From Neisseria sicca (GTDB lineage Bacteria; Pseudomonadota; Gammaproteobacteria; Burkholderiales; Neisseriaceae), in the NCBI RefSeq assembly GCF_014054945.1, contig NZ_CP059566.1:562036-626035 (forward strand): 64,000 nucleotides of DNA, written 5' to 3'. Shown piece after piece: positions 6,993-23,895 of this stretch. Position 1 is the first letter of the stretch, and each line of letters opens with the position of its first letter. Made by a program: the position numbers and the translations under genes. Below the pieces are notes generated by a model. That model worked only from the letters and a program-made list of their open reading frames with translations. It did no database searches and was not told where the DNA came from.

Positions 6993-7023
6993 AGAGAAAC
7001 CTTATTTTATAAGGTTTCTCTCA
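6993..7023. repeat. stem-loop repeat agagaaacctta..taaggtttctct (copy 1 of 2)
   Basis: Perfect 12-bp inverted repeat. The same ~45-bp sequence (gtgtaaaaaagagaaacctt...ataaggtttctct) recurs at 23293-23337, where it acts as the ssb terminator. Confidence 0.6.
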
Positions 7024-7996: not shown

Positions 7997-8055
7997 CTGA
8001 AATCGCTTTCAGACGGCATTTCCGTATCAAGTGCGGTCGTTTTACAACCAGTTTT

Positions 8056-9399: not shown

Positions 9400-9460
9400 A
9401 ATTTGTCTCTGTGAAATGATGGATTGCGCGCCAATTATATACCTTATCGATTTATTTTTA

Positions 9461-9530
9461 CATGAGACCTTTGCAAAATCCCCCAAAATCCCACCAAGAC
9501 ATTTAGGGGATTTTGGGGGATTTTGCAAAG
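9461..9530. repeat. solo IS1106-terminus-derived miniature palindromic element
   Basis: tgagacctttgcaaaatcccccaaaatcccaccaagacatttagggga matches the IS1106 left end. It is followed by the inverted partner ggggattttgcaaagttctca. No transposase is present. Confidence 0.6.
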
Positions 9531-9535
9531 TTCTC

Positions 9536-9580
9536 AGGCCGTCTGAAACCCGGAATTAGGTTTTCAGACGGCCTTTTTTG
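9536..9580 (-). terminator. DUS inverted-pair terminator downstream of the LysR gene
   Basis: aggccgtctgaaacc...ggttttcagacggcct followed by a T-tract. Confidence 0.65.
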
Positions 9581-9617
9581 TTTTTCAGGCAGCTTTTTTG
9601 GAATGGCCGGCGGCATC

Positions 9618-10517: not shown

Positions 10518-10696
10518 AAATTTTTCTTGCGCAGATCGGGCATTTATGCCCGACAAATACAGGTAAATTTAAAAACGTCGGGCATCAATGCCCGACCTAC
10601 ATTTGGTATTTTCTTGCCCGAGATTAGGGAAGCACATTCCCGAATAAAACAAATATACTTCATCCCGTGCAAAAACACATCACAAGGAGCAAAAAA
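10518..10696. promoter_or_regulatory. divergent LysR / monooxygenase promoter region with paired palindromes
   Basis: Contains two copies of the palindrome gggcat(n)atgcccgac (10530-10548 and 10578-10600) and AGGAG 8 nt before the ATG at 10697. Typical arrangement for LysR autoregulated divergent pairs. Confidence 0.4.
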
Positions 10697-11662
10697 ATGA
10701 CTGCGCTGAAATTACCCGAACGCCTGCAAAACCATCGCGGTTTCGCCCGCACTTTCCAACCGGGCAAACTCACATTGGGCCTGATTGCGCCCTTCAAAGG
10801 CTATCCCGACAGCCCCGTGCCCGAAATGGACGACTTCGCCACCGTGATAAAAGCCGCCGACCAAAGCGGCATTGCCACGCTGTGGGTGCGCGATGTGCCG
10901 TTTTACGACCCGAGTTTTGGCGATGTCGCGCAGATTTACGACCCGTCGGTAACGCTGGGTTATCTCGCCGCGCTCACCCAAAACGTTGCGCTCGGCTCGG
11001 CGGGCTATGTGTCGCCGCTGCGCGAACCGGTGCTCACCGCCAAAGAAGCCGCGTCGGTGGAACAAATCAGCGGCGGCCGCTTCCTGCTCGGCTTGGCCAG
11101 CGGCGACCGTCCCACCGAATACCCCGCCTTTGCCTCCGATTTCAACAACCGCGCCGAACGCTACCGCGAAGCGTGGCAAATCATCCGCCGCCTGACGCAG
11201 GAAAAATTCCCCGCATTCAATAGCGAACACTACGGCAGATTCAGCGGCAATTTGGACTTGGTGCCCAAACCCGCACACGGTTTGCCGATGCTCGCCATTG
11301 GCCGCGCCCGCCAAGAGCTGGAATGGATTGCCCGCGAAAGCGACGCATGGATTTGGTACGGCATCGCCCCCGAAAAACTGGGCGACATCGTCAACACGCT
11401 CAAAGAATTGGGCGACGGCGAAACCTGGAAACCCTTTGGCGTGGCGAATTTCGTCGAACTCTTGGAAGACCCGAACGCGCCCGCCGAGTTCTACAATAAC
11501 ATCTACCTGCGCGGCGGCGCCAAAGGCATCGTCGAGTTTTGGCAGAAACAGCAGGCCGACGGCGTGGCACACATTACCGTGAACTTAAAACCCACACGGC
11601 GCGGCGCGCTGGAAACCATTCAGGATTTCGCCGAAAACGTGATACCGCATTTTGCGGTGTGA
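10697..11662 (+). CDS. luciferase-like (LLM-class) flavin-dependent monooxygenase/oxidoreductase
   Basis: 321 aa from MTALKLPERL. TIM-barrel LLM signature regions (TLWVRD..., GRFLLGLASGD, FNSEHYG). RBS aaggag upstream. Confidence 0.75.
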   Translation: MTALKLPERLQNHRGFARTFQPGKLTLGLIAPFKGYPDSPVPEMDDFATVIKAADQSGIATLWVRDVPFYDPSFGDVAQIYDPSVTLGYLAALTQNVALGSAGYVSPLREPVLTAKEAASVEQISGGRFLLGLASGDRPTEYPAFASDFNNRAERYREAWQIIRRLTQEKFPAFNSEHYGRFSGNLDLVPKPAHGLPMLAIGRARQELEWIARESDAWIWYGIAPEKLGDIVNTLKELGDGETWKPFGVANFVELLEDPNAPAEFYNNIYLRGGAKGIVEFWQKQQADGVAHITVNLKPTRRGALETIQDFAENVIPHFAV

Positions 11663-11697
11663 GATTTGGGGGTTTCAGGCTGCCTGAAATGCTAAAC

Positions 11698-11731
11698 GCC
11701 GTCTGAATCCATTTTTCAGACGGCTTTTTTG
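11698..11731 (+). terminator. DUS inverted-pair terminator
   Basis: gccgtctgaatccatttttcagacggc followed by a T-tract. Immediately 3' of the LLM gene. Confidence 0.65.
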
Positions 11732-11792
11732 TGTTACGGCGATTTTTCTTTATAATACGAAAAATTTTTATGAATTAACAAAGGCTGGAATT

Positions 11793-13556
11793 ATGGCAGT
11801 AGAAGCAGCTAACGGCGATTTATTGCACGTGGTGGAGTTATTGGGGGCGGCGGTAGTTGCCGTGCCGTTATTTAAACGTTTAGGTCTAGGCTCAATTCTG
11901 GGTTATTTGGCTGCGGGGCTGGTTATCGGACCCTTCGGATTAAAGCTCGTTACCGATTCCCACGCTATTTTGCATATTGCGGAATTCGGCGTGGTGATGT
12001 TTCTGTTTTTGATCGGGCTGGAAATGAAGCCGTCGCATTTATGGAAATTGCGTAATCAGATTTTCGGCTTGGGTACCCTGCAGGTGACGTTTTCCAGTCT
12101 GTTCCTTACCCAAATCGGGCTGGCTTACGGTTTTCCTTTAGTGATGTCGTTTATTTCGGCGGTAGGTTTTACACTCACCTCCACCGCAATGGTCATGCAG
12201 ATTATGGACGAACGTCATGAAATCAGCACACCGCAAGGTCAGCGCATTGTCTCCATTTTGCTGTTTGAAGATTTGCTGATTGTGCCCATGCTGGCGATTG
12301 TAGCATTTCTAGCACCCGATAATCCCAATGCCGTTGCCGATGCCGTACCGCTATGGCAGAAAATCGGTGTTGCCGCGCTTTCTTTGGCAGCGTTGATTGC
12401 GACAGGTATTTGGCTGCTCAATCCGCTGTTTAAAATTCTGGCAAAATCCAAAGCACGCGAGGTGATGACTGCCGCCGCGCTGCTGGTGGTACTCGGTGCG
12501 GCTTATTTAATGGAGCTGGGCGGTCTGTCTATGGCGATGGGTGCGTTTCTGGCGGGAGTGCTGCTGTCGGAATCCGACTTCCGTCATCAGCTTGAAGCGG
12601 ATATCGAACCGTTCCGAGGCCTTTTGCTCGGGCTGTTTTTCTTAGCTGTCGGGATGTCGCTGGATGTGGCAACGGTGCTCAATAACTGGAAGGTAATTCT
12701 TTCCGCCACTGTACTGATGATTATCTTGAAATGCCTTGCCATTTATGGAGTGGCGCGTTTTGCCAAAGCAAGCCATCGCACCGCGATACACCGCGCCGTA
12801 CTGATGTCGCAGGGCGGTGAATTCGCCTTCGTATTACTCGCCTCCGCTGCCGTACAACGGGCGATTAATGCGGAAGTGCTAGCGAATATGACGGCAATCG
12901 TGGTGCTCTCCATGATTATGACACCCTTCAGCGTTATGCTGTTCGACCGCTATTTCAAAGAACCCCGCGCAGCTGTGGCAGTGGATGATGTGGAAGAACA
13001 TGCGGGCGAACTCAACGGCAACGTGCTGATTATCGGATTCGGGCGCATGGGGCAGGTGGTCAGCCAAATGCCGCTAGCCTACGGTGCCACCATTTCCATT
13101 CTGGACAACGATCCCGACACCATCAACGTCGCACGCGAATACGGTTTCAAAGTCTATTACGGCGAAGCCACCCGCGCCGACGTGCTGCATGCCTGCGGCG
13201 TAGAACACACCGACATCGTAGCGGTATGCGTGGACGACGGAGAAAGTGCGGTCAGAATTGTGGAAAATATTCATCATATCAACCCGAACGCCAAGGTGTT
13301 CGTGCGCGCCTGGGACAGACGCAATGCGCTGGCCCTAGTGAAAGCGGAAGCGGATTTCGTAGTGCGCGAAACCTTCTATTCTTCCATGAAAATGGGCGAT
13401 GAAATCGTCAAGGCATTGGGTGCTAGCGTGCAGGAATTACGTGCCATACACGACAAAGTACGCGACGCCGACAAAGAACGCTTCGCTTTGGAAATTGCCG
13501 GCAAGGAATTTGAAGGGCGCAGATTACTATTGGGGAATATAAAGAAAAATTCGTAA
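11793..13556 (+). CDS. kefC: glutathione-regulated K+ efflux / CPA2 cation:proton antiporter with C-terminal TrkA-N (KTN) domain, KefB/KefC-like
   Basis: 587 aa. N-terminal 12-13 TM Na+/H+ exchanger domain. C-terminal Rossmann GxGxxG (LIIGFGRMGQVV) KTN NAD-binding domain. Confidence 0.8.
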   Translation: MAVEAANGDLLHVVELLGAAVVAVPLFKRLGLGSILGYLAAGLVIGPFGLKLVTDSHAILHIAEFGVVMFLFLIGLEMKPSHLWKLRNQIFGLGTLQVTFSSLFLTQIGLAYGFPLVMSFISAVGFTLTSTAMVMQIMDERHEISTPQGQRIVSILLFEDLLIVPMLAIVAFLAPDNPNAVADAVPLWQKIGVAALSLAALIATGIWLLNPLFKILAKSKAREVMTAAALLVVLGAAYLMELGGLSMAMGAFLAGVLLSESDFRHQLEADIEPFRGLLLGLFFLAVGMSLDVATVLNNWKVILSATVLMIILKCLAIYGVARFAKASHRTAIHRAVLMSQGGEFAFVLLASAAVQRAINAEVLANMTAIVVLSMIMTPFSVMLFDRYFKEPRAAVAVDDVEEHAGELNGNVLIIGFGRMGQVVSQMPLAYGATISILDNDPDTINVAREYGFKVYYGEATRADVLHACGVEHTDIVAVCVDDGESAVRIVENIHHINPNAKVFVRAWDRRNALALVKAEADFVVRETFYSSMKMGDEIVKALGASVQELRAIHDKVRDADKERFALEIAGKEFEGRRLLLGNIKKNS

Positions 13557-13962
13557 AATAGACCGCACTTTTGTAGCTGCAAGCGATGGAATTTAAGCGA
13601 AAAATTGCAAAAATTCCACCGCACTTTTTACGCCCGTTCGGAACGCAGGCGGTGTTGGCGGATGTTTTTCAGCAGGCGGAACAGTTCCGCCCACGCGGAG
13701 CGTTTCGGCTGCGGGGTGTTGCCTGTGCCGATGAGCTTCATTTGATAAGCATACCAGCCCAGTTCGAGAAAGCCGCCGAGCTTGCGATCGATGAATCCCA
13801 AGCCTGTGCGGACGGCGGGCAATTCCGCTTTTGCCAATCCGCCCGATAACATCCGTTGCGGCAAATCGGGAATGAGTGCAAATAGTATTTCAGACGGCCT
13901 TTTAAGGTTTCTACATCTATATTTTAGTCGGCGAACTGTTTTTTCATTCGTTCGCGTCGCTC

Positions 13963-14795
13963 TTGCGCTTCTACGGACAATGGCACAGCCTCTCCGATCC
14001 CGAACTCGAACACAGCCTCATCACCCGCATCGATTTCAACCTGTTTTGCCGTTTTGACGAGTTGAGCATCCCCGATTACAGCACCTTATGCCGCTACCGC
14101 AACTGGCTGGCGCAAGACGACACCCTGTCCGAATTGCTGGAACTGATTAACCGCCAACTGACCGAAAAAGGCCTAAAAATAGAGAAAGCATCCGCCGCCG
14201 TCATTGACGCCACCATTATTCAAACTGCCGGCAGCAAACAGCGTCAGGCTATAGAAGTCGATGAAGAAGGACAAGTCAGCGGCCAAACCACACCGAGTAA
14301 GGACAAAGATGCCCGTTGGACAAAGAAAAACGGCCTCTACAGACTCGGTTACAAACAACATACCCGTACCGATGAGGAAGGCTATATCGAGAAACTGCAC
14401 ATTACCCCCGCCAATACCCATGAGTGCAACCACCTGTTGCCTTTGCTGGAAGGTATAGCCAAAGATACGACCGTCTATGCCGACAAAGGCTACGACAGTG
14501 CGGAAAACCGGCAACATCTGAAAGAACATCAGTTGCTGGACGGCATTATGCGCAAAGCCCACCGCAACCGTCCGCTGACGGAAGCGCAAACCAAACGCAA
14601 CCGATATTTGTCGAAAACCCGTTATGTGGTGGAACAAAGCTTCGGTACGCTGCACCGTAAATTCCGCTATGCCCGGGCAGCCTATTTTGGTCTGGTTAAA
14701 GTGAGTGCACAAAGCCATCTAAAGGCGATGTGTTTAAACCTGTTGAAAGCGGCTAACAGGCTAAGTGTGCCTGTTGCCGCCTAAAAGGCGGCCCG
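13963..14795 (+). mobile_element. IS1106-like element copy B, 5'-truncated
   Basis: ORF begins inside the transposase (…QWHSLSDPELEHS) and runs to the native C-terminus ...LKAANRLSVPVAA. Right end gccgcctaaaaggcggcccggat. Confidence 0.75.
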
Positions 14796-14806
14796 GATCC
14801 CTTATT

Positions 14807-15700
14807 TGTAGAAACTAGTAGCGTTGTTTACAGTATTTCCAGGAGAATACTGAAACATGAACATGCACAAAAACACCCGTCTCACCCCGCACCACCGCCA
14901 AGCCATTTGGCTGGCCTACACGCAGGGGAAGGAAAGCGTCACCTCCCCGGCACGCCACTACCAAGTCAGCCGCATCACTATTTACCGCGCACTTAAAGCC
15001 GCAAGAGGCAGACTGCTCAAACCCCAAACCAGTACCAACAACCGTTTCAAACAGGCAAAGTACGGAATGAAACGCCTGGCCAAGGTAGAACGCGGCATTC
15101 AGGAAAAACTCAAAAGGCAGGCCAAACGCTACAATAAATCCTACCCCGGAGAGCTGGTACATCTCGATACCAAACGGCTGCCGCTGCTCAAAGGGCAGAA
15201 AGCCACCGATAAGCGGGATTACCTGTTTGTTGCCATCAACGATTTCTCAAGGGAGCTATACGCCGCCATTTTGCCGGACAAAACTGCAGACAGTGCCGCC
15301 AAATTTCTGACTGAACACCTGATTGATCCCTGCCCATACCTGATTGAGTGCGTTTACTCCGACAACGGTACGGAATATAAAGGCTCGGCCAACCATGCTT
15401 TCGGTGTAGCTTGTTATGAGAACGGGATTGGTCAAAAGTTTACCCGGGTTGCCCGTCCGCAGACCAACGGTAAGGCGGAACGGGTTATCCGCACCCTGAT
15501 GGAGATGTGGCATGAGAAACAGTTGTTTGACAGTCCGGAACACCGGCGAAAGGAGTTGTGCCGCTTTGTTAATTTCTATAACACTGTGAAGCCGCACCGC
15601 AGTTTGAACGGCGATACGCCGTTTGAGGTCTTGCAGGCTTATTTTTCTCAACCTGTGGTGTAAACAACGCAACGTTTTCCTACACAACAGGAGGGACAAG
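14807..15700 (+). mobile_element. IS1655-like insertion sequence (IS30 family), copy 2, inverted relative to copy 1
   Basis: Ends tgtagaaactagtagcgttgtttacagtatttcc... and ...tgtaaacaacgcaacgttttcctaca. Transposase 14857-15663. Confidence 0.75.
14857..15663 (+). CDS. IS30-family transposase (IS1655-like)
   Basis: 268 aa, about 90% identical to the 3373-4179 protein. DDE motif intact. Confidence 0.85.
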   Translation: MNMHKNTRLTPHHRQAIWLAYTQGKESVTSPARHYQVSRITIYRALKAARGRLLKPQTSTNNRFKQAKYGMKRLAKVERGIQEKLKRQAKRYNKSYPGELVHLDTKRLPLLKGQKATDKRDYLFVAINDFSRELYAAILPDKTADSAAKFLTEHLIDPCPYLIECVYSDNGTEYKGSANHAFGVACYENGIGQKFTRVARPQTNGKAERVIRTLMEMWHEKQLFDSPEHRRKELCRFVNFYNTVKPHRSLNGDTPFEVLQAYFSQPVV

Positions 15701-15775
15701 CAGTTTACGCTTACGCCTGTGCCGTTAAACGAGATCATTCATTTCATGCGGGACACTTGGCGGTATTGCTGATGC
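15701..15775 (+). pseudogene. 3' remnant of a metallophosphoesterase gene (paralogue of 29085-29957) truncated by IS1655 copy 2
   Basis: gacaagcagtttacgcttacgcctgtgccgttaaacgagatcattcatttcatgcgggacacttggcggtattgctgatg is about 85% identical to 29886-29965 (the end of the 29085-29957 CDS). The downstream hairpin ggacggattgaaaacccgtcc matches ggcggataaggaaatccgtcc. Confidence 0.6.
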
Positions 15776-15877
15776 AAAAAGGACGGATTGAAAACCCGTC
15801 CTTTTGTTTTGCCGACTGTTTTTCAGGCAGCCTGCACTATTCAAGGCTACCTGAAAATTCATCTCTAAAATAAAAGC

Positions 15878-16537
15878 TCATTCATTCAATGCTGTCAATC
15901 TCGCCCGAACTTTTGCAGCCGCATCTTCCGTGCTGTTGCCGACAATAACGTTTTGCTTGTCGTCGAAATACTGAACGGCAGGGAGGTCGCGCAGGAAGCT
16001 GTCAATATCCTGTGCGGTCAGGAAACGGCCGTGCATATCCCAGCCGACATTGAGGGCACGCCCTTTGACGGCGGCCATGCGGTCGTGCAGATGGCCGTAG
16101 AGGTGGTATAGGCCGTGGTGGATGCCGTCCCATTCGTATAAGGGATAGTGGCACAAAATCGCGGTATTGCCGATTTCGGGCAGTTTGAGCCGCAGGTAAT
16201 GGCTGGCGGACGAGAGCAACGGATGGCCGTCGGCTTTGCGCGTGTTGAGGAAATGTGCTTCGTTTTGCCGAATCAGGTAGTCGTGGTTGCCGTAAATCAA
16301 ATGGTGTTGCCCGTTAAGCCGTTGCAGCACGGCTTCGATGTGTGCGGGCTTTTTGGCAAAGCAGACATCGCCGAGGTTGTACACAGTGTCTTGCGGGGTA
16401 ACGACGCGGTTCCAGCAGTCGATCAGGTATTCGTTCAACTCGTCGGCGTTATCGCTTTGCAGGCGAAATTGCGGGCAGTATCGGGCGATGTTGGGATGGG
16501 AGAAGTGCCAGTCGGCTGTGAAATAGGTTTGAGGCAT
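15878..16537 (-). CDS. calcineurin-like metallophosphoesterase
   Basis: 219 aa. DWHFSH, GDVCF, GNHD, and GHLH motifs in canonical order. Confidence 0.75.
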   Translation of the reverse strand: MPQTYFTADWHFSHPNIARYCPQFRLQSDNADELNEYLIDCWNRVVTPQDTVYNLGDVCFAKKPAHIEAVLQRLNGQHHLIYGNHDYLIRQNEAHFLNTRKADGHPLLSSASHYLRLKLPEIGNTAILCHYPLYEWDGIHHGLYHLYGHLHDRMAAVKGRALNVGWDMHGRFLTAQDIDSFLRDLPAVQYFDDKQNVIVGNSTEDAAAKVRARLTALNE

Positions 16538-16650
16538 GGGATACTCGGTTTCTGGTCATCTGACAATGAAAAATAAGGTGCAGGCTGCTTTAGAGGTCGT
16601 CTGAAACGGAGTTGGGGCGATAAAAAGCAGCCTGCACTTTTTTTGCCCGC

Positions 16651-17490
16651 CTATCTGCCGGTCAATACCAACCGTTGGCAGAAGGCTTCCCAATCGGCAA
16701 GGGGCACAACGCGTTTGCCGTCTGCTAACCGGTGCACATCGGAAGCGCAGGCGGTGTGCCAATAGGTGTAAAACGGTAGTTTGGCGATGTCGGCTTCCGG
16801 TACGGCAGGGGCATTGTCTTGTCCTGGCGTATGCACAATCGGCAGGCCGAAATAGCTGTATTGGCCATCTGCGGCTTTGTCGCCTGTGTGGCCGGTTTGG
16901 CCGCGGTGTCTGCCGGTACGAACAAACCGTCGGCAGAATGCGTTCCAATCGTGCAGAAACACGGCGGCTTGTCCGTCTATCAGGCTTTGGGCCGAACCGA
17001 TGCTGCTGTCCCGCCAAAACAGGTAGAACGGCAATTCGGCGATGTGGCGTTCCATGACGACCGGACAATCGCCCTGTCCTGCCGGCTGCATCACCGGAAC
17101 GCCGAAACAGGCGGTTTCAGGCAAGGTATGTGCAGGCTGCATGAAGGCGTTTTGCAGGATAACGGCCGCTTCGGCAGGGTCGATACCCAAACTGTCTATG
17201 GCAGGCTGCAAGGTTGCAGGCAGGTCGCAAAAGCAACCTGCACCTTCCGGCAGGCAATATACCGAGTTGTGCGTATGAGCCAGCGGTGCCGCCCATAGGG
17301 TAACGGGCGAGGTGCGGATTCGGCTGCCTGCGGTAAAACGTCCCGAACCATCTTGGACGACTGTGCCGTACACCACGGCATACTCGGATTTACCGGGCGT
17401 GTGGTAGCACGTGAATGTCCAGTCGGTGAGCATGCAGGGGGATAGGGTGCTGTCGTGGGGATGTTCGGATGAGATGGGGGTGTTGGGCAT
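16651..17490 (-). CDS. hypothetical protein with two tandem ~45-aa repeats
   Basis: Repeats ELPFYLFWRDSSIGSAQSLIDGQAAVFLHDWNAFCRRFVRTGR and KLPFYTYWHTACASDVHRLADGKRVVPLADWEAFCQRLVLTGR. No recognisable family. Confidence 0.5.
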   Translation of the reverse strand: MPNTPISSEHPHDSTLSPCMLTDWTFTCYHTPGKSEYAVVYGTVVQDGSGRFTAGSRIRTSPVTLWAAPLAHTHNSVYCLPEGAGCFCDLPATLQPAIDSLGIDPAEAAVILQNAFMQPAHTLPETACFGVPVMQPAGQGDCPVVMERHIAELPFYLFWRDSSIGSAQSLIDGQAAVFLHDWNAFCRRFVRTGRHRGQTGHTGDKAADGQYSYFGLPIVHTPGQDNAPAVPEADIAKLPFYTYWHTACASDVHRLADGKRVVPLADWEAFCQRLVLTGR

Positions 17491-17985
17491 GGTTCATTCC
17501 TGAAATGGCGGGGTTTAGACAGCCACAGTCATTGCGAGGTATGCAGATTGCCTGAAATTTCGCGTTACACTTCAATCGCGCTCCTGTTCCGATAACCAGT
17601 TTGGACAATTATTTTTGGAATACCTTTGGGATTAATGATCATGCAGCAGTCTTAAATTTTTGCATACATGGCCGCGTGCTTGTCTCCGGCAAGACGTGAG
17701 CGAAGCTGAGCGAATCCATATTGTTAACAAAATTAAGATTTAGTGGAGGCTGCTGCAAGCTGCGGTGCGGGCTTGAGCGGAAAGTAGTTCAGTATAATAG
17801 TGTTTGACGCGCCATTAAACTGCTGTATCTCTCTGCCCGGAAGAAGTAGATGTTGACGAAAATTGTCTTCTACTCTACCCATCAAGAAGTTTAATAGGTG
17901 TGAAGAGATTGTCTGAAAATTGATTTTCAGACGATCTTTTGTAGAGACTACTATAGTAAAAATAATTTACCTTACATCCTATAAA

Positions 17986-18396
17986 TTACCTACGTTGACG
18001 GTTAACAGCAATAAGAGGCTTATTTAAAGTAACTTGGGTCATACCATGCATATATGCATTATATTGCCATACAATAAATTGCTGTTTATATCGCTCATTA
18101 ATTTCTTCCAAACGTTGTACCTGAGCTTTTAAATTCTTAACTTGCTTTTGCAGATAATCCATTGTTACATTCGGTTCTGGGTTAGCTTTTGCTTTTTCTT
18201 TAAGTATATGTTTTTGTTTGCTAAATGCCCCTTGTATATCTGAATAATTAGCTAGGGATTGTCTTTCAATACTTTTAACATTTAATAATTCTGAAACTTT
18301 GTGGCAAAGTAATTCCCAAGTTAATTTACCTTCCCAGGTCTTAATTAACATGATAATGTCTTCTAAACGTTCTTCTGTAACAAGAATTTTGGGCAT
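17986..18396 (-). CDS. small coiled-coil accessory protein (TnpC-like position)
   Basis: 136 aa. Start overlaps the recombinase-3 stop (18396/18398). C-terminal coiled-coil (KNLKAQVQRLEEINERYKQQ). Confidence 0.55.
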   Translation of the reverse strand: MPKILVTEERLEDIIMLIKTWEGKLTWELLCHKVSELLNVKSIERQSLANYSDIQGAFSKQKHILKEKAKANPEPNVTMDYLQKQVKNLKAQVQRLEEINERYKQQFIVWQYNAYMHGMTQVTLNKPLIAVNRQRR

Positions 18397-18397
18397 A

Positions 18398-20440
18398 TTA
18401 TAACTCCATTAGTCTATACAAATCATTGTCTAATTTAGCTGTATCTGGTTCTAGAATGTCTATATCCATTCCTTTTTCCTGTAAAGCTAATTTAACTGGG
18501 GAAGGGTCATACTCATCAGGAATTCGTAATAATGATCCATTTGGAATTTCCCGATTTTCTAAAAATGCAATTTTGGTTTTTATATGTGTTAATCTCCATC
18601 CCAAATTACTTATCCACCGATCTGCACCAAAAACACCTAATTTATGGTGCTCTCTCGCTTTATTAAATTGTTCTGTAAGTTGAATTTCTCTAAGCTTTAA
18701 TATTTCTAAAGATGATTCTAATCCTTTAATACAAACGAGTTCTTTACATGTTTCACAATCCCCATGGCGAGAGCATGGCGACATTGCATAATCATGTTCA
18801 CAAATGCCTATTTCCGTTATAGTTGCAATTCCAATTCTATTTTTTCCTAAGTCTTCATAGGTTACTGGAAGATTTAAATGAATTTTATCTAAAAGTGAAG
18901 CATACTCGGGAATAAGTAAATTCCGAACTGCTTCACTTTTTTCTTCTTCTGTCCTGTGATCATAAGCCTTATTATCTGCAATTCTAGCCCTCCCTGCCCA
19001 GTTCGCTAAAGTTAATTCATCCATTCCACCTCTCTCAGCTTTTGTACTTAACCAATGCCTTGCATTGTGTGATAGCAATCTAACAAACTCTCCTTTCGAA
19101 GTAGTTATACAATGCTTTTCCCATAATGATGTTTTAGGGCGTGTATCAGAATAGCAGAATCTATCATTAATAAGATTTACTGTTGGTAATATAAAAGAAA
19201 ATTTTTTAGGGAGAAAATTATCATGAAATTCATTTTCTCTGAATAATAATAAGGCTTCAGAAGCTTTAACGTTTTTATTTTTATCAATATATGGCCAGTA
19301 ATTGAATTTTGAGGTATATTTTTCGTATAAGTATTTCCCTAAAACATTGGGAGTTATAACACCACTATTTTCTTTCATTAACTTTTCAAACCACTTAGTT
19401 TTAATCCCATGCTTTCCATTAATTTCTAAAACCTTACCTATTTCTATTTCAGTTAAAGGTTTTTGAGGTAAATAATGGGATACTTGCATACCTTGATCTG
19501 GTGATATCATTACCGTGTTCGGATTTTCTTCCGCAAACTTTGCTGCTTTTCTTGCTAAAGCTCCTATATCTGTTAAACGTTTGACTGCTTCAATAATCAC
19601 ATCTTGCATGCTACTAGGAACCCATTTCAAACCCTCTTTTCCATTTTTTGCAGGTATCCATCGAATACCTAATTGCTTATTTCCTAGGCTATCTTCTTCC
19701 CATTCTAAGCAATTAACAGATAAAGACATCAACTCAGAACAACGAGATGGAGCAACCATAAGTAGAGCCATAACTGCTGTATAATACTCAGTTTCTTTAT
19801 CTAAATTTGGTGCATCATGAAAGAGTTTGGCTACCAACATCATTTCTTCATCTGTTGGCATTTTACTTGAACGGTATTCTTTTCCTCTTTCATCAAGCAA
19901 TATCGTTAAATCTCTAGGACGTTTATATGGGTTATTCCATAAAGACAAATTTGGAGTAATACCATTTTCACGACAAAAATCAAATAACTTCTCAAGTTGA
20001 TATCCTAATTTATTGACTGATTCAGTATCTTTTTTATATTTTTTCAATACAAGGGTTTCAACTTCATTAATGACTAAATTATCGAGTTGTAATATATCGC
20101 AATTGTCTTTTACATTGTATAAAGCCATTTCAACCATACGTAATGACTCAAGATGCCGTGATAATTGACGAACTGGTTGCTGAGAGTAAACATAACGAAT
20201 GTATGCTTTAGCAAAATCAATAAATGGTTCAGATAACGGCTCATATTGATAGGATGTAGATTTAACCCTATCTGTGGAAAAACGAACTTGAATGTTGTGA
20301 AGATTAAAGGTATCTCTCCATTGATTATTGTCCCAACAATCACTTCCGAAAGCTGTAAGTTTGTTTCTACAGAAAGTGATAAAATTTTCTAAACTGGATT
20401 TTGGATTCTCATGTACTTGGAAAAAAATTGTATTATTCAT
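18398..20440 (-). CDS. tyrosine recombinase 3 of 3 (large, TnpB-like)
   Basis: 680 aa. LLSHNARHWLST (RH motif), LANWAGRARIADNKAYDHRT (W/H...Y). Long N-terminal extension, as in Tn554 TnpB. Confidence 0.7.
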   Translation of the reverse strand: MNNTIFFQVHENPKSSLENFITFCRNKLTAFGSDCWDNNQWRDTFNLHNIQVRFSTDRVKSTSYQYEPLSEPFIDFAKAYIRYVYSQQPVRQLSRHLESLRMVEMALYNVKDNCDILQLDNLVINEVETLVLKKYKKDTESVNKLGYQLEKLFDFCRENGITPNLSLWNNPYKRPRDLTILLDERGKEYRSSKMPTDEEMMLVAKLFHDAPNLDKETEYYTAVMALLMVAPSRCSELMSLSVNCLEWEEDSLGNKQLGIRWIPAKNGKEGLKWVPSSMQDVIIEAVKRLTDIGALARKAAKFAEENPNTVMISPDQGMQVSHYLPQKPLTEIEIGKVLEINGKHGIKTKWFEKLMKENSGVITPNVLGKYLYEKYTSKFNYWPYIDKNKNVKASEALLLFRENEFHDNFLPKKFSFILPTVNLINDRFCYSDTRPKTSLWEKHCITTSKGEFVRLLSHNARHWLSTKAERGGMDELTLANWAGRARIADNKAYDHRTEEEKSEAVRNLLIPEYASLLDKIHLNLPVTYEDLGKNRIGIATITEIGICEHDYAMSPCSRHGDCETCKELVCIKGLESSLEILKLREIQLTEQFNKAREHHKLGVFGADRWISNLGWRLTHIKTKIAFLENREIPNGSLLRIPDEYDPSPVKLALQEKGMDIDILEPDTAKLDNDLYRLMEL

Positions 20441-20442
20441 AA

Positions 20443-21990
20443 TTAATGAGCCTCCATATTTTTTTTCATTTCATTACACGCTTGAACAACATATTCAACA
20501 GCCAATATAATACGATCCTTAGAAGATGCATAATCTATACTTTTAGTTCTTCTTAAACGTTCTTCTTTCTCTTTATACAGTTTATTTAATATTTGTTGAT
20601 GTGGACCATCAACCAAAGGTCTAAATTTAGGACATAAATAACAAGTCTCATAACCAGTTATACAAAAATCATTCGTCCCACATGCGCCTATAGTATCTAC
20701 TCCGTTATTAGTTATTAAAGATGTTGGATCAAATCCTCTCTCACTTTCATTCAAATTAGAAATAATTCTGCCAACAAATGCTTGGGCTAGTTTTCCCATT
20801 TCAGCACCCATAACGCGATCAATATATTGCACTGTATCCGCTGTATTTTCAGTATAGACTTTCACATTTTGTGTATCTGAGTGATCTAATAGTTCTGCTA
20901 TAATCGCTGCACCAACTCCTTTTCTCCCTAGGTTAGTTCCCCTTGTATGACGAAAACGTCTTGCATTAACATGAATGATTTCACCTGTCCGCTCTGAAAC
21001 AGCTTTTTGATGAATACAGAATTTTCGTAATGTGTTTTTCTCTAATGAAGATGTTGAGTAATGAAAAATATCTTTATCTAATAATGAAAGATCAAAACAC
21101 CTATTTTGTATATTCCTTTTCAAAGTATACCAATCGATAAACATTGGTAATCTCATTTTATAATCTGATATAAATGCTTCATCAACCAAACTAAGTAATT
21201 TTTTGTATTGATATTCTATGAAGTTTAAGAGAATTAAATACAAATCCTCTGTGATGGCAAGCTTTTTAAATGTTCCTCTAAATAACCCTCCTCTCTTTTT
21301 AGCCCTAGGGATATTTAGGAAATAATTCCATGTTCCTTGAGAAATTTCCTTTTTCAAGTCTTCAAATTTTAAATGGCGGATTTGAATAGGTCTTCTCGCG
21401 GTAGCTTGAAGTAAGTGAATATATGTATATGTTTCAAATGGAATAAGATCTTCTTTCCAAAGTCTAGCCAGCTCCGTCATTAAAGCCAAAATTTCATTTT
21501 CAGTAAATGCACCTGTATAAGGGCATCTCATTAATACCGCTTTACCTTTGTTGTTTCCACTCAAGGTAAAGCTTTCTAGCAGCAATGCAACTGATTCATC
21601 AACTCCATAATAACCATACTCATGCCATGAGAGCAAAAAACCTTTTAGTGCACCTAAATACCATTCATGATCTTTTCCTAATTTATTTTTCCAATCCAAG
21701 ATTATTGGCACGTTAATATTTTCTAATCTAGTTGAAATTACTAATCGTTGGAACTGTTGGTACATGTGAGATACGTGATAACTTGAATATTTTTCGGCAT
21801 ATATTGCTAATGTCTTTCTGAACCCTTCTAATGTTTTTTTATTAATTCCTAATATGTGTTTAGAAAAATTAATCTTTATTTCTTTGCTTATATGCCAAGA
21901 ATTTTCGTTTTCATCAAATACATATCCATCTCTAGATTGTCTAATAATTTTATTATGATTCATAATCATCAACCTTTTTTTGAAACTCAA
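20443..21990 (-). CDS. tyrosine recombinase 2 of 3
   Basis: 515 aa. HVNARRFRHTRGT (box II RHT) and LLDHSDTQNVKVYTE (H...Y). Overlaps the upstream gene by 38 nt. Confidence 0.75.
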   Translation of the reverse strand: MSFKKRLMIMNHNKIIRQSRDGYVFDENENSWHISKEIKINFSKHILGINKKTLEGFRKTLAIYAEKYSSYHVSHMYQQFQRLVISTRLENINVPIILDWKNKLGKDHEWYLGALKGFLLSWHEYGYYGVDESVALLLESFTLSGNNKGKAVLMRCPYTGAFTENEILALMTELARLWKEDLIPFETYTYIHLLQATARRPIQIRHLKFEDLKKEISQGTWNYFLNIPRAKKRGGLFRGTFKKLAITEDLYLILLNFIEYQYKKLLSLVDEAFISDYKMRLPMFIDWYTLKRNIQNRCFDLSLLDKDIFHYSTSSLEKNTLRKFCIHQKAVSERTGEIIHVNARRFRHTRGTNLGRKGVGAAIIAELLDHSDTQNVKVYTENTADTVQYIDRVMGAEMGKLAQAFVGRIISNLNESERGFDPTSLITNNGVDTIGACGTNDFCITGYETCYLCPKFRPLVDGPHQQILNKLYKEKEERLRRTKSIDYASSKDRIILAVEYVVQACNEMKKNMEAH

Positions 21991-23284
21991 TTTGAAGTTC
22001 TAATAATATCTTGTTAGCTTTTTCTCTAATATAACGTTGATTATAGAAATTACCTGATTTTTCTGACGTATGCCCCATGAGATGCTGTCTTATTTTTGCC
22101 TCTTTTTCAGGGGAGATAAAATCTTTATGGGAAGAATCATGATTTAAATTTTTATTATTCTTATCTACTTTTCGTGAAAAATATAAGTTCCATTCATGAC
22201 GAAAAATATGCGGATGAATAATAGAGAATCTTGGATCTACCTTTTTCATCGTTGGTACAATAACGTTGTCAAAAGAACTTGTACTAATTGGACTCCCTTG
22301 AGTTTTTCCTTTTCGATGAGTTACAAACAAATATGGATGTGTATTCGCATTGGGAACTTTAGAACGATAATTCATAATATAATCATTAAGTAGTTGAGCT
22401 ATCTTTTGTGATATTGGCAAGCGCCTTTCTTTAGTTTTACTAACTGCCTGAATTTTTCTTGTGTCAAATTTATCATCATGCGTTCGCTTTATTGTAACCG
22501 ATGGTTTAGCAGTCCCTATATCGATAAATGGTATTTGAAGTGATAATAGTTCTCCTCTTCTAATTCCTAATTCTTTCAGTAAGATAAACATTAAATGGTT
22601 TCTTTTTCTTATTCCGATATCTTGAAACGGATTATTAGGGTTTGAAAAGTTCGCAATAGACATAAACTCATCTAACAATCCATCGGGTAACTCACTTTCT
22701 GGTTTTATAGATAATGCTTTATGATTCTTAGGTCTTACTCCTTTAATTAGCGTAAGTAATTTTGTTAATTTTTTGATATATTCGTTAGATACACTTATTA
22801 CTTTAGATAGAAATAATATGTATTCTGAAAGTGTTGTTAGCCTATTATATTGGTGACTAAGGGATACAGACGAGTAAATATCAATAAATTGAGTTCGACC
22901 TTTCATTGACACACTTTTTTTTGTACTAATTACATTTTTTTGCTTTTTTACATTTATTCTCATATGTTGAATAAGAGATTCTAATTGATTTTCTGTTAAG
23001 AGTATCTCTTTATGAATCAGATCACTAATAACAAGATTATTCTCTTTTTCCCAGTTCATTAGCCATTGTATGGTTCCTAGTTTATTTCTAATGGTATTTA
23101 CTGCGGATTGATTACGTAGTTCTACTGTTACCCATAGGGTTGAATAAAAATCAGGTATACCAGTTTTCTCATTAACTAACAGGGAAAAGCGTTCTCCATT
23201 TGAAAACAGGATTGTTTCTAGTCTATACATATCTACTAAATTTACAGAGTTAATATATATAAATACTAACAAAGAAGATAACAA
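21953..23284 (-). CDS. tyrosine recombinase 1 of 3 (TnpA-like)
   Basis: 443 aa. C-terminal catalytic domain with R (GIRRGELLSL), HxxR (HPHIFRHEW) and H...Y (LMGHTSEKSGNFYNQRY). Confidence 0.75.
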   Translation of the reverse strand: MLSSLLVFIYINSVNLVDMYRLETILFSNGERFSLLVNEKTGIPDFYSTLWVTVELRNQSAVNTIRNKLGTIQWLMNWEKENNLVISDLIHKEILLTENQLESLIQHMRINVKKQKNVISTKKSVSMKGRTQFIDIYSSVSLSHQYNRLTTLSEYILFLSKVISVSNEYIKKLTKLLTLIKGVRPKNHKALSIKPESELPDGLLDEFMSIANFSNPNNPFQDIGIRKRNHLMFILLKELGIRRGELLSLQIPFIDIGTAKPSVTIKRTHDDKFDTRKIQAVSKTKERRLPISQKIAQLLNDYIMNYRSKVPNANTHPYLFVTHRKGKTQGSPISTSSFDNVIVPTMKKVDPRFSIIHPHIFRHEWNLYFSRKVDKNNKNLNHDSSHKDFISPEKEAKIRQHLMGHTSEKSGNFYNQRYIREKANKILLELQIEFQKKVDDYES

Positions 23285-23292
23285 AAGTCAAA

Positions 23293-23340
23293 ATATGTGT
23301 AAAAAAAGAGAAACCTTGCTATATAAGGTTTCTCTGGGTT
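23293..23340 (-). terminator. ssb rho-independent terminator (stem-loop repeat copy 2 of 2)
   Basis: agagaaaccttgctatataaggtttctct, 40 bp 3' of the ssb stop. Same sequence as 6993-7023. Confidence 0.7.
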
Positions 23341-23379
23341 TTAATGATTTATTTTTTACAAAATTCAAGTATACAGAAT

Positions 23380-23895
23380 TCAGAACGGAATATCGTCGTC
23401 GATGTCCTCGACAGGGGCTGCCGGTGCGGCGGGAGCTTGGCGGCGGGGGGCGGCAGGGGGTTCTTGGTTTTGCGGGGCGGCTTGGTATTGTTGTTGTGGC
23501 GCTTGTTGTTGGTAGCTGCCTTGGCTGTAACCGCCGTCGTCGTAAGGTGCGCCGCCGCTGTTGTCGTTGCGGCCGCCGAGCATTTTCATTTCATTGGCGA
23601 TAATGTCGTATGCGGTACGTTCGATGCCGTCTTTGCCTTGGTATTTACGGCTTTGGATGCGGCCTTCCAGATAAACTTGGCTGCCTTTTTTCAGGTATTG
23701 CCCAGCGATTTCGGCGAGGCGGCGGTACATAGTGATGTTGTGCCACTCGGTGCGTTCCACGCGCTGGCCGTTGCGGTCGTTCCAGGTTTCGCTGGTGGCG
23801 ACGCTGAAATTGCAGACGGCTTCGCCGTTGGGCATATAGCGGACTTCGGGGTCGCGACCGAGACGGCCGATAAGGATGACTTTGTTCAATGACAT
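23380..23895 (-). CDS. ssb: single-stranded DNA-binding protein
   Basis: OB-fold N-terminus ([38 protein letters not shown]), Gly/Gln/Pro-rich linker, acidic tip DIDDDIPF. Confidence 0.95.

What the first reader, a model, noticed from the sequence alone, without database searches (positions are those of the whole stretch)
17945..23340. Low-GC island with three consecutive tyrosine recombinases plus a small coiled-coil protein, inserted at the ssb terminator
Four overlapping minus-strand genes (443, 515, 680 and 136 aa) sit in a ~5.3 kb block of about 30% GC, while flanking DNA is 50-55% GC. All three large proteins carry the R...HxxR...H/W...Y catalytic signature of tyrosine recombinases (HPHIFRHEW/GHTS..FYNQRY; FRHTRGT/LLDHS..VYTE; ARHWLST/NWAGR..AYDHRT). 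The architecture looks like a Tn554-type transposon (two Y-recombinases of about 360 and 630 aa plus TnpC of about 125 aa) with an extra recombinase. It is equally like a recombinase-in-trio (RIT) element followed by a TnpC-like fourth gene. I do not recognise this exact configuration from Neisseria. The first gene begins about 10 bp beyond the ssb terminator hairpin. This suggests site-specific integration just 3' of ssb, possibly with read-through expression. No cargo gene is present, so this may be a minimal site-specific mobile module.
Basis: partly seen in the sequence, partly recalled or inferred. Interest (0 to 1): 0.85.

Follow-up and report, generated by a model that had tools for sequence, protein, structure and literature searches.

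The report
Three-integrase island (GInt) at ssb
The low-GC block is the four-gene recombination module of a known kind of mobile genomic island (a GInt, also called a Tn6571-family element); the island sits on the last codons of the ssb gene and is about 16 kb long with stress-resistance cargo, so it is a well-preserved but ordinary example that I found no published description of in Neisseria.

Summary
Four overlapping minus-strand genes (425/443, 508/515, 680 and 136 aa) lie in DNA of 32% GC next to ssb.

- This is the ginABCD module of a GInt (Bardaji 2017), a class already known to prefer the 3' end of ssb. It is not a RIT element, not Tn554 in the strict sense, and not an SE.
- The junction is at the ssb stop codon (attL core CCGTTCTGA, 23388-23380). 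The "ssb terminator" hairpin belongs to the element and recurs, with compensatory changes, in relatives from the other host groups compared.
- The element is not cargo-less. The 207 bp after ginD, including a second hairpin, are conserved element DNA.
- The conserved AT-rich right end (…TATAGAAACAACC-CCATTTTGA) lies at 7235-7065, so the island spans about 16.3 kb.
- The cargo comprises two unknown genes, two IS copies and one IS fragment, a KefC-like exporter, an LLM oxidoreductase, a LysR regulator and an RclA-like reductase. It is almost free of the host's uptake sequence.

In all 32 related genome loci with enough upstream DNA, ssb lies directly upstream of ginA. Genomes with the identical SSB protein but no island exist.

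Verdict: a new member of a known kind, of low to moderate interest.

The parts
23380..23388 (-). attL core CCGTTCTGA: the last two codons (Pro-Phe) and the stop codon of ssb. It is an imperfect direct repeat of the attR core.
   Evidence: Homology to five empty sites ends at 23376. Every related locus has the same CCN-TTY-TRA junction. It matches the att repeats published for ssb-inserted GInts.
23231..23379 (-). Left end of the element. It holds the terminal motif ATTCTGTATAC, a TGTAAAAAATAAA motif, a terminator hairpin at 23307-23335 followed by a T run, and a promoter-like site (TTGACT at 23291-23286, TAGTAT at 23268-23263).
   Evidence: This architecture is conserved after ssb in Neisseriaceae, Pasteurellaceae and marine Gammaproteobacteria, and on E. 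coli and P. aeruginosa plasmids. Hairpin and promoter scans. Five of six predicted stem pairs show compensatory changes.
21953..23230 (-). ginA, an ordinary-size tyrosine recombinase (425 aa from the ATG; the ORF opens at the TTG at 23284).
   Evidence: Pfam Phage_integrase E = 4.8e-10. Invariant R224, K265, H341, R344, H345, Y396. Matches the first gene of the pPAD8, pETN48 and pCF39S operons at E = 1e-33 to 3e-68.
20443..21990 (-). ginB, a tyrosine recombinase with a C-terminal four-Cys cluster (508 aa from the ATG at 21969).
   Evidence: NCBIfam NF041502 site-specific integrase, 553 bits, full length. Pfam Phage_integrase E = 4.3e-9. Invariant R193, K224, R340, Y372 and C430, C436, C443, C446.
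18398..20440 (-). ginC, a large (680 aa) protein with a tyrosine-recombinase fold and a C-terminal Cys/His cluster.
17986..18396 (-). ginD, a small all-helical protein (136 aa) with a long C-terminal helix and no recognised domain.
   Evidence: Only coiled-coil-type noise in Pfam. The family alignment has invariant W21, W27, R45, Q46 and the motif F107..W110-Q-x-N-A. The single-sequence model is all-helical but of low confidence. Matches the fourth gene of the pETN48, pPAD8 and pCF39S operons at E = 4e-14 to 2e-25.
17784..17985 (-). Conserved segment after ginD, with a terminator-like hairpin at 17907-17936. This is element DNA, not host DNA.
   Evidence: It is 97% identical over 207 bp (17784-17990) in elements of Pasteurella, Aggregatibacter, Bisgaard taxon 45 and Moraxella; after it the cargo differs between elements. 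Fold.
15693..17783 (-). Cargo module 1: a 279-aa protein with an internal repeat (16651-17490) and a 219-aa protein with D-x-H / GD / GNHD motifs like those of metallophosphoesterases (15878-16537). Both are of unknown function.
   Evidence: The module follows ginD in other Neisseria, Kingella and Eikenella at 88-98% protein identity, while the flanking MFS transporter protein is only 62-87% identical. It lies inside a GInt that is bounded by its own right end in N. uirgultaei. It also occurs elsewhere in the same genome. No family hits. It contains uptake-sequence variants of the Kingella, Eikenella and Simonsiella types (the type names are from memory).
13963..15691 (+). Two IS copies inside the cargo: an IS5-family copy (transposase ORF 13963-14784) and an rve-type IS (14800-15691, transposase 14857-15663, 33-nt terminal inverted repeats).
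   Evidence: Several related contigs diverge from the window at 15685-15693.
7996..13962 (.). Cargo module 2: a KefC/KefB-like K+ efflux protein (11793-13556, +), an LLM-class oxidoreductase (10667-11662, +), a LysR regulator (9618-10556, -), and a flavoprotein reductase resembling RclA and hypothiocyanous-acid reductase (8056-9528, -).
   Evidence: The module carries 8 of the window's 12 canonical DUS and all 4 Haemophilus-type USS, but none of the host's 53 mucDUS copies. The same genes, at 95-99% identity, are linked to the same right end in metagenome contigs, some behind an ssb only 52% identical.
7453..7995 (.). Fragment of an IS5-family element between the cargo and the right end.
   Evidence: BLAST matches to the other IS5 copies in the window.
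7074..7235 (-). Conserved AT-rich right end (GC 0.23) ending in TATAGAAACAACC, with repeated TGTAAAA/TTTTTAC motifs.
   Evidence: BLAST to the right ends of Pasteurellaceae elements (75-79% identity). In an eight-element alignment TATAGAAACAACC is invariant. Sequence.
7065..7073 (-). attR core CCATTTTGA, which again reads Pro-Phe-stop.
   Evidence: Contigs L012 and L013 are collinear with the window up to 7069 and then continue with different DNA, a canonical DUS-pair hairpin.
6969..7064 (-). Left-end remnant of a second GInt in tandem (GTTACATATAA…, hairpin, TTGACAC), cut by an IS5-family element that occupies about 5744-6968.
   Evidence: No second set of gin genes is present in the window.

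Best explanation
What it is. The flagged block is the recombination module (ginA, ginB, ginC, ginD) of a GInt, a "genomic island with three integrases", also called a Tn6571-family element. The host is a Neisseria of the sicca/mucosa group. The island is integrated at the 3' end of the chromosomal ssb gene and runs from the attL core (23388-23380) to the attR core (7073-7065), about 16.3 kb. Its parts, in order, are:
- a left end carrying its own terminator and promoter;
- ginABCD;
- a conserved 0.2-kb segment after ginD;
- about 10.5 kb of cargo;
- a conserved AT-rich right end.

How it most likely works. These steps are inferred from published work on GInts, not shown here. The four Gin proteins together recombine a 9-bp core (CCN-TTY-TRA) on the circular form of the element with the identical sequence that encodes the conserved Pro-Phe-stop end of SSB. 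Because the element's own core also reads Pro-Phe-stop, integration leaves the SSB protein unchanged. It also regenerates a target at attR, which allows tandem build-up of elements. After insertion the element's own hairpin ends ssb transcription, and a promoter-like site just downstream of it would drive the gin operon. Excision would reverse the reaction and give a circle.

State of this copy. All four genes are intact, so it may still be active. Activity was not tested.
For: Architecture and proteins.

Literature:
- GInts are defined by ginABCD, then cargo, then a short AT-rich 3' end. All four genes are needed for excision and integration. Six of eleven example GInts are at the end of ssb, with attL overlapping the gene end and the product unchanged. 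Published att repeats include CCGTTCTAAT/CCGTTTTGAAT and CCGTTTTTAATT (PMC5385486).
- GInt blocks occur in 2.5% of betaproteobacterial replicons (PMC10214605).

Left junction:
- Five contigs encode the identical SSB protein but lack the island, and their homology to the window stops at 23376.
- The left end, hairpin included, is conserved in the 20 other elements compared and on E. coli and P. aeruginosa plasmids. The stem shows compensatory changes.

Target specificity: ssb lies directly upstream of ginA in 32 of 32 genome loci with enough upstream DNA, and also after plasmid ssb genes.

Right side:
- The 207 bp after ginD are 97% identical in Pasteurellaceae and Moraxella elements.
- A 14.3-kb element is 99.6-99.8% identical in three Pasteurellaceae genera, and this defines a right end that finishes in TATAGAAACAACC plus the core.
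- The same right end is in the window at 7235-7065. Contigs L012 and L013 stop matching the window exactly there.

Independent support for the boundaries: only 1 of the window's 53 copies of the host uptake sequence lies inside the 16.3 kb (expected 17.8, P about 3e-7).

Family assignment: each Gin protein matches, gene for gene, the four proteins of the pPAD8, pETN48 and pCF39S operons (E = 4e-14 to 1e-113). None matches SE proteins significantly (best E = 0.003).

Mobility: in contig L017 the flank is 82% identical to the window while the left end, ginA and ginB are 99-100% identical.
Against: - No excised circle or attI junction of this exact element was found.
- I could not compare the proteins directly with the type GInts of Pseudomonas stutzeri or P. 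syringae, because no sequence was available in the collections. Membership therefore rests on architecture, target, att sequence and the lack of similarity to SE.
- GinC here keeps the first Arg and the Tyr. Published accounts say the first Arg is missing from GinC (PMC5385486), that GinC lacks the RHRY motif, and that most GinC proteins lack the catalytic Tyr (PMC10214605).
- The cargo is rearrangement-prone. The p279/p219 module is duplicated elsewhere in the genome. In assembly GCA_000174655.1 the gin module and the right end lie on different contigs. The present 16.3-kb unit may therefore be a recombinant rather than what was originally integrated.
- Most Neisseria copies have broken ginA, ginB or ginC, so the lineage is largely decaying.
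Confidence: 0.85

Rival explanations
1. One reading: a minimal, cargo-less mobile module of about 5.4 kb, bounded at about 17945 and 23340, and integrated just beyond the native terminator of ssb.
For: The GC drop coincides with these limits. Hairpins sit at both limits. The second hairpin looks like a Neisseria uptake-sequence pair.
Against: Both hairpins are conserved element DNA in hosts that do not use that uptake sequence. Empty sites diverge from the window at the stop codon, not after the hairpin. The family's conserved right end is absent near 17945 and present at 7235-7065. The host uptake sequence is nearly absent over the whole 16.3 kb.
Confidence: 0.03
2. The 23388-7065 interval is a chimera, not one transposable unit. 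The gin module and the right end would come from different tandem GInts, or would have been joined by recombination between duplicated p279/p219 modules and IS copies, so the present structure may never have moved as a whole. This refines the main explanation rather than replacing it.
For: A second left-end remnant lies right after attR. Right end-to-left end junctions are common in metagenome contigs. In GCA_000174655.1 the same cargo and right end follow an AAA_14/DUF4143 gene and a second copy of the p279/p219 pair on another contig, while the gin module is followed by an RHS gene. Two IS copies and an IS fragment lie inside the cargo. Cargo module 1 and cargo module 2 carry different uptake-sequence types.
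Against: Metagenome contigs L008 and L009 carry the window's arrangement from ssb through the gin genes into the cargo, and L012 and L013 carry it from ginB through the right end; after the right end L012 and L013 continue with different DNA. In N. uirgultaei the p279/p219 module lies inside a GInt with its own right end.
Confidence: 0.25
3. [quoted passage not shown]
For: The gene number and protein sizes are nearly the same: 429, 576, 679 and 140 aa in the SE of pHNAH8I-1. The large third protein keeps an R-H-R-Y set, like IntB.
Against: There is no significant BLASTP similarity to IntA, Tfp, IntB or Srap (best E = 0.003), while the matches to non-SE four-gene operons are strong. The middle protein keeps catalytic R, K, R and Y, whereas Tfp is reported to lack RHRY. 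SE synteny blocks were found only in Gammaproteobacteria. The ssb-end target is a reported GInt trait.
Confidence: 0.03
4. It is a RIT (recombinase-in-trio) element, or Tn554 in the strict sense with an extra gene.
For: Three adjacent tyrosine-recombinase genes, plus a small protein the size of TnpC.
Against: RIT elements have three recombinases of 315-410 aa, 34-bp terminal inverted repeats and no fourth gene. Here two of the three recombinases are 508 and 680 aa, a fourth gene is conserved, and the ends show no inverted repeat above chance. Tn554 has three genes, and its reported hosts are Staphylococcus and Enterococcus.
Confidence: 0.02

Closest known systems
GInts inserted at the end of ssb (Ralstonia solanacearum PSI07, Shewanella baltica BA175, P. 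syringae UMAF0158 and AZ84488, Opitutus terrae; Bardaji et al. 2017, PMC5385486)
   Same: A four-gene operon of three integrase-like genes plus a small helical protein at the attL end. Cargo starts after the fourth gene. The 3' end is short and AT-rich. Insertion overlaps the ssb stop codon and leaves SSB unchanged. The imperfect direct repeats are of the CCGTTYTRA type. No transfer genes are present.
   Different: The host genus is new: I found no Neisseria example in the searchable literature. GinC here keeps all the Arg, His, Arg and Tyr positions, whereas GinC is described as lacking the first Arg or the whole motif. Direct sequence comparison with these published elements could not be run.
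Type GInts of Pseudomonas (the Pht-PAI of P. syringae pv. phaseolicola 1448A; the P. stutzeri DSM 4166 GInt), also called Tn6571-family transposons
   Same: The ginABCD organisation. All four genes were shown experimentally to be essential. A circular intermediate forms. The proposed cut is staggered by 6 nt.
   Different: [quoted passage not shown] Bardaji reports less than 35% protein identity in comparisons among the ssb-inserted GInts themselves. Here function is only inferred.
Strand-biased circularizing integrative elements (SE-6283, SE-6945, the tmexCD-toprJ SEs; PMC10214605)
   Same: Four core genes of nearly the same sizes at the left end, site-specific insertion, no transfer genes, and short imperfect terminal repeats.
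   Different: No detectable sequence similarity. The middle protein keeps its catalytic residues. The host class differs. No evidence is available on strand bias or footprints.
Tn554 family (tnpA, tnpB, tnpC)
   Same: [quoted passage not shown] One database groups ginABCD elements as Tn554-family subfamilies.
   Different: Tn554 has three genes, not four. Its known hosts are Gram-positive. Its target differs. Homology was not tested here.

Membership tests
GInt | A co-oriented four-gene operon at one end of the island: three tyrosine-recombinase-type proteins followed by a small helical protein. | tested here: met
GInt | Tripartite structure: gin operon, then variable cargo starting just after ginD, then a short AT-rich 3' end. 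| tested here: met
   The cargo differs between elements from 207 bp after ginD onward. The conserved right end has GC 0.23.
GInt | Site-specific insertion flanked by imperfect direct repeats of 10-17 nt; for the ssb group, attL overlaps the gene end without changing the protein. | tested here: met
   attL is CCGTTCTGA and attR is CCATTTTGA, a 9-bp core, which is slightly shorter than the published 10-17 nt. Empty sites. ssb lies upstream in 32 of 32 loci. Published repeats.
GInt | Sequence homology of the four proteins to GinA-D of accepted GInts. | tested here: inconclusive
   No reference Pseudomonas sequences were available. There is gene-for-gene homology to the four-gene operons of pPAD8, pETN48 and pCF39S (E = 4e-14 to 1e-113) and none to SE proteins.
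GInt | Excision to a circle and integration, both requiring all four genes. | not testable with these tools
   Shown only for Pseudomonas GInts. The metagenome search for the circle junction of this element found nothing.
GInt (a reported trait, not part of the definition) | GinC lacks the first catalytic Arg (Bardaji); it lacks the RHRY motif, and most GinC proteins lack the catalytic Tyr (Idola). | tested here: not met
   R233, H458, R461 and Y493 are invariant from 100% down to 26% identity. The assignment is by motif context; no residue-level structural superposition was possible.
SE | Homologues of IntA, Tfp, IntB and Srap. | tested here: not met
   BLASTP against the SE of pHNAH8I-1 gave a best E of 0.003 and no full-length match.
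SE | The second protein (Tfp) lacks the catalytic RHRY motif. | tested here: not met
   GinB keeps R193, K224, R340 and Y372 across the family.
SE | Imperfect terminal inverted repeats of 13-19 bp, a 6-bp footprint, and no empty site after circularisation. | tested here: inconclusive
   Only a short imperfect match of about 9 bp (TTCTRTAT) lies near both ends. Footprints and strand bias need experiments.
RIT | Exactly three tyrosine recombinases of about 315-410 aa, with no fourth conserved gene. | tested here: not met
   The proteins are 425, 508 and 680 aa, plus the conserved 136-aa GinD.
RIT | Terminal inverted repeats (34 bp according to PMC10214605). | tested here: not met
Left end against the reverse complement of the right end scored 14, against 15.3 +/- 2.6 for shuffles.
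Tn554 | Three genes, tnpA, tnpB and tnpC, all required for transposition. | tested here: not met
   Four conserved genes are present here.
Tn554 | Sequence homology to TnpA, TnpB and TnpC. | not tested
   No Tn554 sequence was fetched. The literature reports only a predicted-structure correspondence of TnpC to GinD and Srap.

The most novel reading that the evidence does not exclude
In this ssb-tail clade of GInts all three Gin recombinases may be catalytically competent. GinC keeps Arg, Lys, His, Arg and Tyr down to 26% identity, which conflicts with published descriptions. The attachment core mimics the near-universal Pro-Phe-stop end of ssb. Together these would give a three-recombinase machine with a target present in almost any bacterial chromosome and in many plasmids. 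That would explain near-identical elements in Pasteurellaceae, Moraxella and Neisseriaceae, and relatives behind plasmid ssb genes. The close (at least 75% identity) clade sits almost wholly in naturally competent families, so natural transformation may be its means of transfer.
Probability: 0.3. Interest if true: 0.55.

Novelty: new member of a known kind. Interest (0 to 1): 0.3.

Why it matters
GInts carry resistance, virulence and anti-phage genes but have no known means of transfer, and they have been studied mostly in Pseudomonas. This locus matters for four modest reasons:
- It shows a complete copy, with all four genes intact, in a human oral Neisseria.
- It links that copy to elements shared among Pasteurellaceae, Moraxella and other Neisseriaceae.
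- It gives exact ends and conserved end motifs for the ssb-targeting group.
- It shows that a GC-based island call finds only the recombination module and misses two thirds of the island.

The cargo (an RclA/hypothiocyanite-reductase-like enzyme, a KefC-like exporter, an oxidoreductase and a LysR regulator) would suit life in saliva. That reading is an inference from family names only.

Tried and rejected
- I first took the hairpin at 17907-17936 for a native Neisseria uptake-sequence terminator, with CGTCTGAA next to it as attR. I rejected this when the same 207 bp turned up at 97% identity in Pasteurellaceae and Moraxella elements.
- A pattern search for attR (CCGTTYTRAAT, one mismatch) missed the real site, which differs at two positions.
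- Repeat finding over 13000-23450 showed no meaningful terminal repeats.
- An exact-protein look-up of the 279-aa protein found nothing on record.
- A search of solved structures by sequence with the GinC profile found nothing relevant.
- The single-sequence AlphaFold model of GinD was of low confidence (pLDDT 49). Its weak DUF6262 hit is not supported across the family (3 of 16 members).
- The accession numbers tried for the SE reference plasmids pSEA1 and pBT2436 were not in the plasmid collection, nor was MK347425 under that form. pHNAH8I-1, found as NZ_MK347425, was used instead.
- The circle junction of this exact element was absent from metagenome contigs.
- The idea that the elements are enriched in uptake sequences to promote their own uptake is not supported. 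The gin modules have none, and the islands are poorer in them than their flanks.
- PADLOC found no defence-system match for the two unknown cargo proteins.

Full report
**1. Observation**

The window has four abutting or overlapping minus-strand ORFs at 21953-23284, 20443-21990, 18398-20440 and 17986-18396. They encode 443, 515, 680 and 136 aa, with likely ATG starts giving 425 and 508 aa for the first two. GC falls to 0.26-0.36 across them. It is 0.316 over 17784-23379, against 0.51 on the ssb side and about 0.54-0.55 in the DNA after ginD.

Pfam Phage_integrase is significant for the first two proteins and weak for the third. The second protein matches NCBIfam NF041502, "site-specific integrase", over its full length at 553 bits. 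The fourth protein has only coiled-coil-type noise.

**2. What the architecture is**

Three integrase-like genes plus a small helical protein at the end of an island is the published definition of a GInt, a "genomic island with three integrases" carrying ginABCD (Bardaji et al. 2017, PMC5385486). In that paper all four genes were shown to be essential for excision and integration. Cargo of 2.5-70 kb follows ginD, and the element ends in a short AT-rich stretch. [quoted passage not shown] In those, attL overlaps the end of the gene, the protein is unchanged, and the flanking repeats include CCGTTCTAAT/CCGTTTTGAAT and CCGTTTTTAATT.

A sister class, the SEs (intA-tfp-intB-srap), has the same layout but no detectable sequence similarity to GInts. 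GInt blocks were counted in 2.5% of betaproteobacterial replicons (PMC10214605). GInts are also called Tn6571-family transposons, and one database files them in the Tn554 family. I found no paper that mentions them in Neisseria.

**3. Left junction**

Contigs that encode exactly the same SSB protein fall into two groups, occupied and empty. The empty contigs are 95-97% identical to the window on the ssb side, and that homology stops at 23376. The sequences diverge at the stop codon:
- empty site: CCGTTTTGA-GTTCATAAAC
- window: CCGTTCTGA-ATTCTGTATAC

It is present after ssb in the 20 other elements compared. These come from Neisseria, Kingella, Haemophilus, Aggregatibacter, Histophilus, Actinobacillus and marine Gammaproteobacteria. 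Its stem differs between them but still pairs. It is followed by a promoter-like TTGACT-17-TAGTAT. The same layout of core, TGTAAAG motif and hairpin follows the plasmid ssb genes of E. coli pETN48 and P. aeruginosa pPAD8. The hairpin is therefore part of the element.

**4. Target specificity**

A scan of one genome per species with a GinC alignment returned 41 loci. In all 32 loci with enough upstream DNA, ssb lies directly upstream of ginA. GinC has close relatives at 75-88% protein identity in Pasteurellaceae (Rodentibacter, Histophilus, Pasteurella, Haemophilus, Aggregatibacter), at 79% in Moraxella, and at 73-100% in other Neisseriaceae. Relatives at 50-58% occur in Shewanella, Vibrio, Idiomarina and Colwellia.

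**5. Right side**

The 207 bp after ginD, including the hairpin at 17907-17936, are 97% identical in elements of Pasteurella, Aggregatibacter, Bisgaard taxon 45 and Moraxella. After that point the cargo differs between elements.

A 14.3-kb metal-resistance element is 99.6-99.8% identical in three Pasteurellaceae genera. Its homology ends sharply at a conserved stretch of about 200 bp, AT-rich, that finishes in TATAGAAACAACC followed by CCGTTYTRA. The same right end occurs in several other elements.

In the window it lies at 7235-7065, ending in …TATAGAAACAACC-ATTTTGA. Metagenome contigs L012 and L013 are collinear with the window from ginB to 7069 and then continue with different DNA, a canonical uptake-sequence pair hairpin. 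The island therefore spans 23388-7065, about 16.3 kb.

All the attR cores seen read Pro-Phe-stop in synonymous codons: CCA TTT TGA, CCC TTC TAA, CCT TTT TAA and CCG TTC TGA.

**6. Independent support for the boundaries**

The host's uptake sequence, GTCGTCTGAA (the N. mucosa-type dialect; the name is from memory), occurs 53 times in the window. Only one copy is inside the island, where 17.8 would be expected (P about 3e-7), and no other copy lies between 1454 and 25290.

Eight of the window's twelve canonical GCCGTCTGAA copies lie in cargo module 2. So do all four Haemophilus-type USS cores; chance expectation is 0.5, and none of 100 shuffles reached four. Variants of the Kingella, Eikenella and Simonsiella types lie in cargo module 1. 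The whole interval is therefore foreign to this genome, even though most of it has host-like GC.

**7. Cargo**

- Two unknown proteins of 279 and 219 aa, with no family hits.
- An rve-type IS, an IS5-family copy and an IS5 fragment.
- A KefC/KefB-like K+ efflux protein.
- A TIGR03571-class LLM oxidoreductase.
- A LysR regulator.
- A flavoprotein whose best matches are RclA and hypothiocyanous-acid reductase; both scores are below the curated cut-offs.

The 279/219 pair follows ginD in other Neisseria, Kingella and Eikenella at far higher identity than the flanking genes show. It also exists as a second copy elsewhere in assembly GCA_000174655.1. There that second copy, not the gin module, is joined to the rest of the cargo and the right end. 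The unit seen in this window may therefore be a recombinant. That is my main reservation, and it is the second rival explanation.

**8. GInt or SE**

Each of the four proteins matches, gene for gene and over most or all of its length, the four proteins of the operons on pPAD8, pETN48 and pCF39S (E = 4e-14 to 1e-113). None matches IntA, Tfp, IntB or Srap of the tmexCD1 SE on pHNAH8I-1 (best E = 0.003). The middle protein keeps its catalytic Arg, Lys, Arg and Tyr, unlike Tfp.

Together with the ssb-end target and the att sequence, this places the element among GInts. I could not compare it directly with the Pseudomonas type elements, so that row of the membership test is marked inconclusive.

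RIT is excluded by the gene number, the protein sizes and the absence of a terminal inverted repeat.

**9. Proteins**

- GinA has the full R-K-H-R-H-Y set.
- GinB keeps R, K, R and Y; its second His is present in all sequences inspected, but the first His position is not conserved.
- GinC keeps R233, K265, H458, R461 and Y493, with R484 where His or Trp usually sits.

**10. Mechanism**

Inferred from the GInt literature: the Gin proteins recombine the 9-bp core on the circular form of the element with the identical Pro-Phe-stop sequence at the end of ssb.

Shown here:
- the exact junctions;
- the conserved ends;
- the preserved SSB reading frame;
- the element-borne terminator and promoter-like site;
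- a regenerated target at attR with a second left-end remnant in tandem.

Right end-to-left end junctions occur in 27 metagenome contigs. The copy in this window has four intact genes, whereas most sister copies carry frameshifts. Evidence of movement between species comes from contig L017, where the flank is 82% identical to the window but the left end, ginA and ginB are 99-100% identical. The gin operons are also mosaic: in L015 and L022 ginA is 76-77% identical while ginC is 99-100%.

**11. Verdict**

This is a real feature, correctly spotted as a recombinase-based integrative element at ssb, but it belongs to a known class. Its ends were misplaced and its cargo was missed. It is a new member of a known kind, of low to moderate interest.

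Noticed in passing
window 1-64000; island 7065-23388: Uptake-sequence dialects mark out the island. The host type GTCGTCTGAA occurs 53 times but only once inside the island. Eight of the twelve canonical GCCGTCTGAA copies and all four Haemophilus-type USS cores (8029, 13244, 13562, 13618) lie in cargo module 2. Variants of the Kingella, Eikenella and Simonsiella types lie at 15822-17131.
   Followed up: yes
window 6969-7064, with an IS at about 5744-6968: Right after attR lies the left end of a second, different GInt (GTTACATATAA…, hairpin, TTGACAC), cut by an IS5-family element. No second set of gin genes is in the window. This indicates tandem build-up at the regenerated ssb-like core.
   Followed up: partly
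window 15693-17511; L011 9018-10660: The gene pair encoding the 279/282-aa and 219-aa proteins is a repeated module. In GCA_000174655.1 and in several metagenome contigs a second copy follows an AAA_14/DUF4143 ATPase gene, sometimes near a RepB gene. The 279-aa protein has an internal repeat. Function is unknown.
   Followed up: partly
L040 7058-21372; L031; L021 (Pasteurella multocida CP084164.1): A 14.3-kb GInt carrying arsenic, cadmium/lead and copper resistance genes is 99.6-99.8% identical in Aggregatibacter kilianii, Bisgaard taxon 45 and Pasteurella multocida, and partly present in Moraxella caviae. Its cargo holds two Neisseria DUS, one Hin-type USS and two Apl-type USS.
   Followed up: partly
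L015, L017 and L022 against window 17986-23379: The gin operons are mosaic. L015 and L022 have ginC 99-100% identical to the window's, but ginA only 76-77% and the left end only 71-73%. L017 has a flank 82% identical but a left end, ginA and ginB 99-100% identical. Recombination breakpoints fall inside ginB.
   Followed up: partly
L071 3149-6538; L078: Metagenome contigs with a Pasteurellaceae-like ssb (52% identical) carry the window's KefC-like gene at 98-99% identity and the GInt right end, but no gin genes. The same sequence of about 55 bp follows both the ssb stop codon and the right end. This may be a gin-less derivative.
   Followed up: partly
L063 (E. coli plasmid pETN48, NC_014615.1, 144734-156826): A distant gin operon (about 30-40% identity) sits right after the plasmid ssb gene. 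An IS3 element lies between ginB and ginC, and an Avs4 anti-phage nuclease gene is the first cargo gene. Thirty-seven E. coli plasmids have a GinC homologue, and the E. coli ones listed are about 31-32% identical.
   Followed up: partly
L023 about 4590-4697 (inside ginB): An insertion of about 105 bp in ginB of an uncultured Neisseria matches an intergenic repeat in the empty-site contig L001 (18238-18395). It looks like a small mobile repeat.
   Followed up: no
window 20443-21969 (GinB residues 430-446); 18398-20440 (GinC residues 547-570): Both larger recombinases carry invariant Cys-rich clusters after the catalytic Tyr (C430/C436/C443/C446 in GinB; C547/H549/C556/C562/C565/C570 in GinC). 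These may bind zinc. Canonical tyrosine recombinases do not, to my knowledge (from memory), have such clusters.
   Followed up: partly
window 29056-29997: A metallophosphoesterase gene on the other side of ssb is 79-80% identical to the sequence that follows the 219-aa gene in other contexts (L014, L018-L020). This suggests a paralogous copy linked to the repeated module.
   Followed up: no
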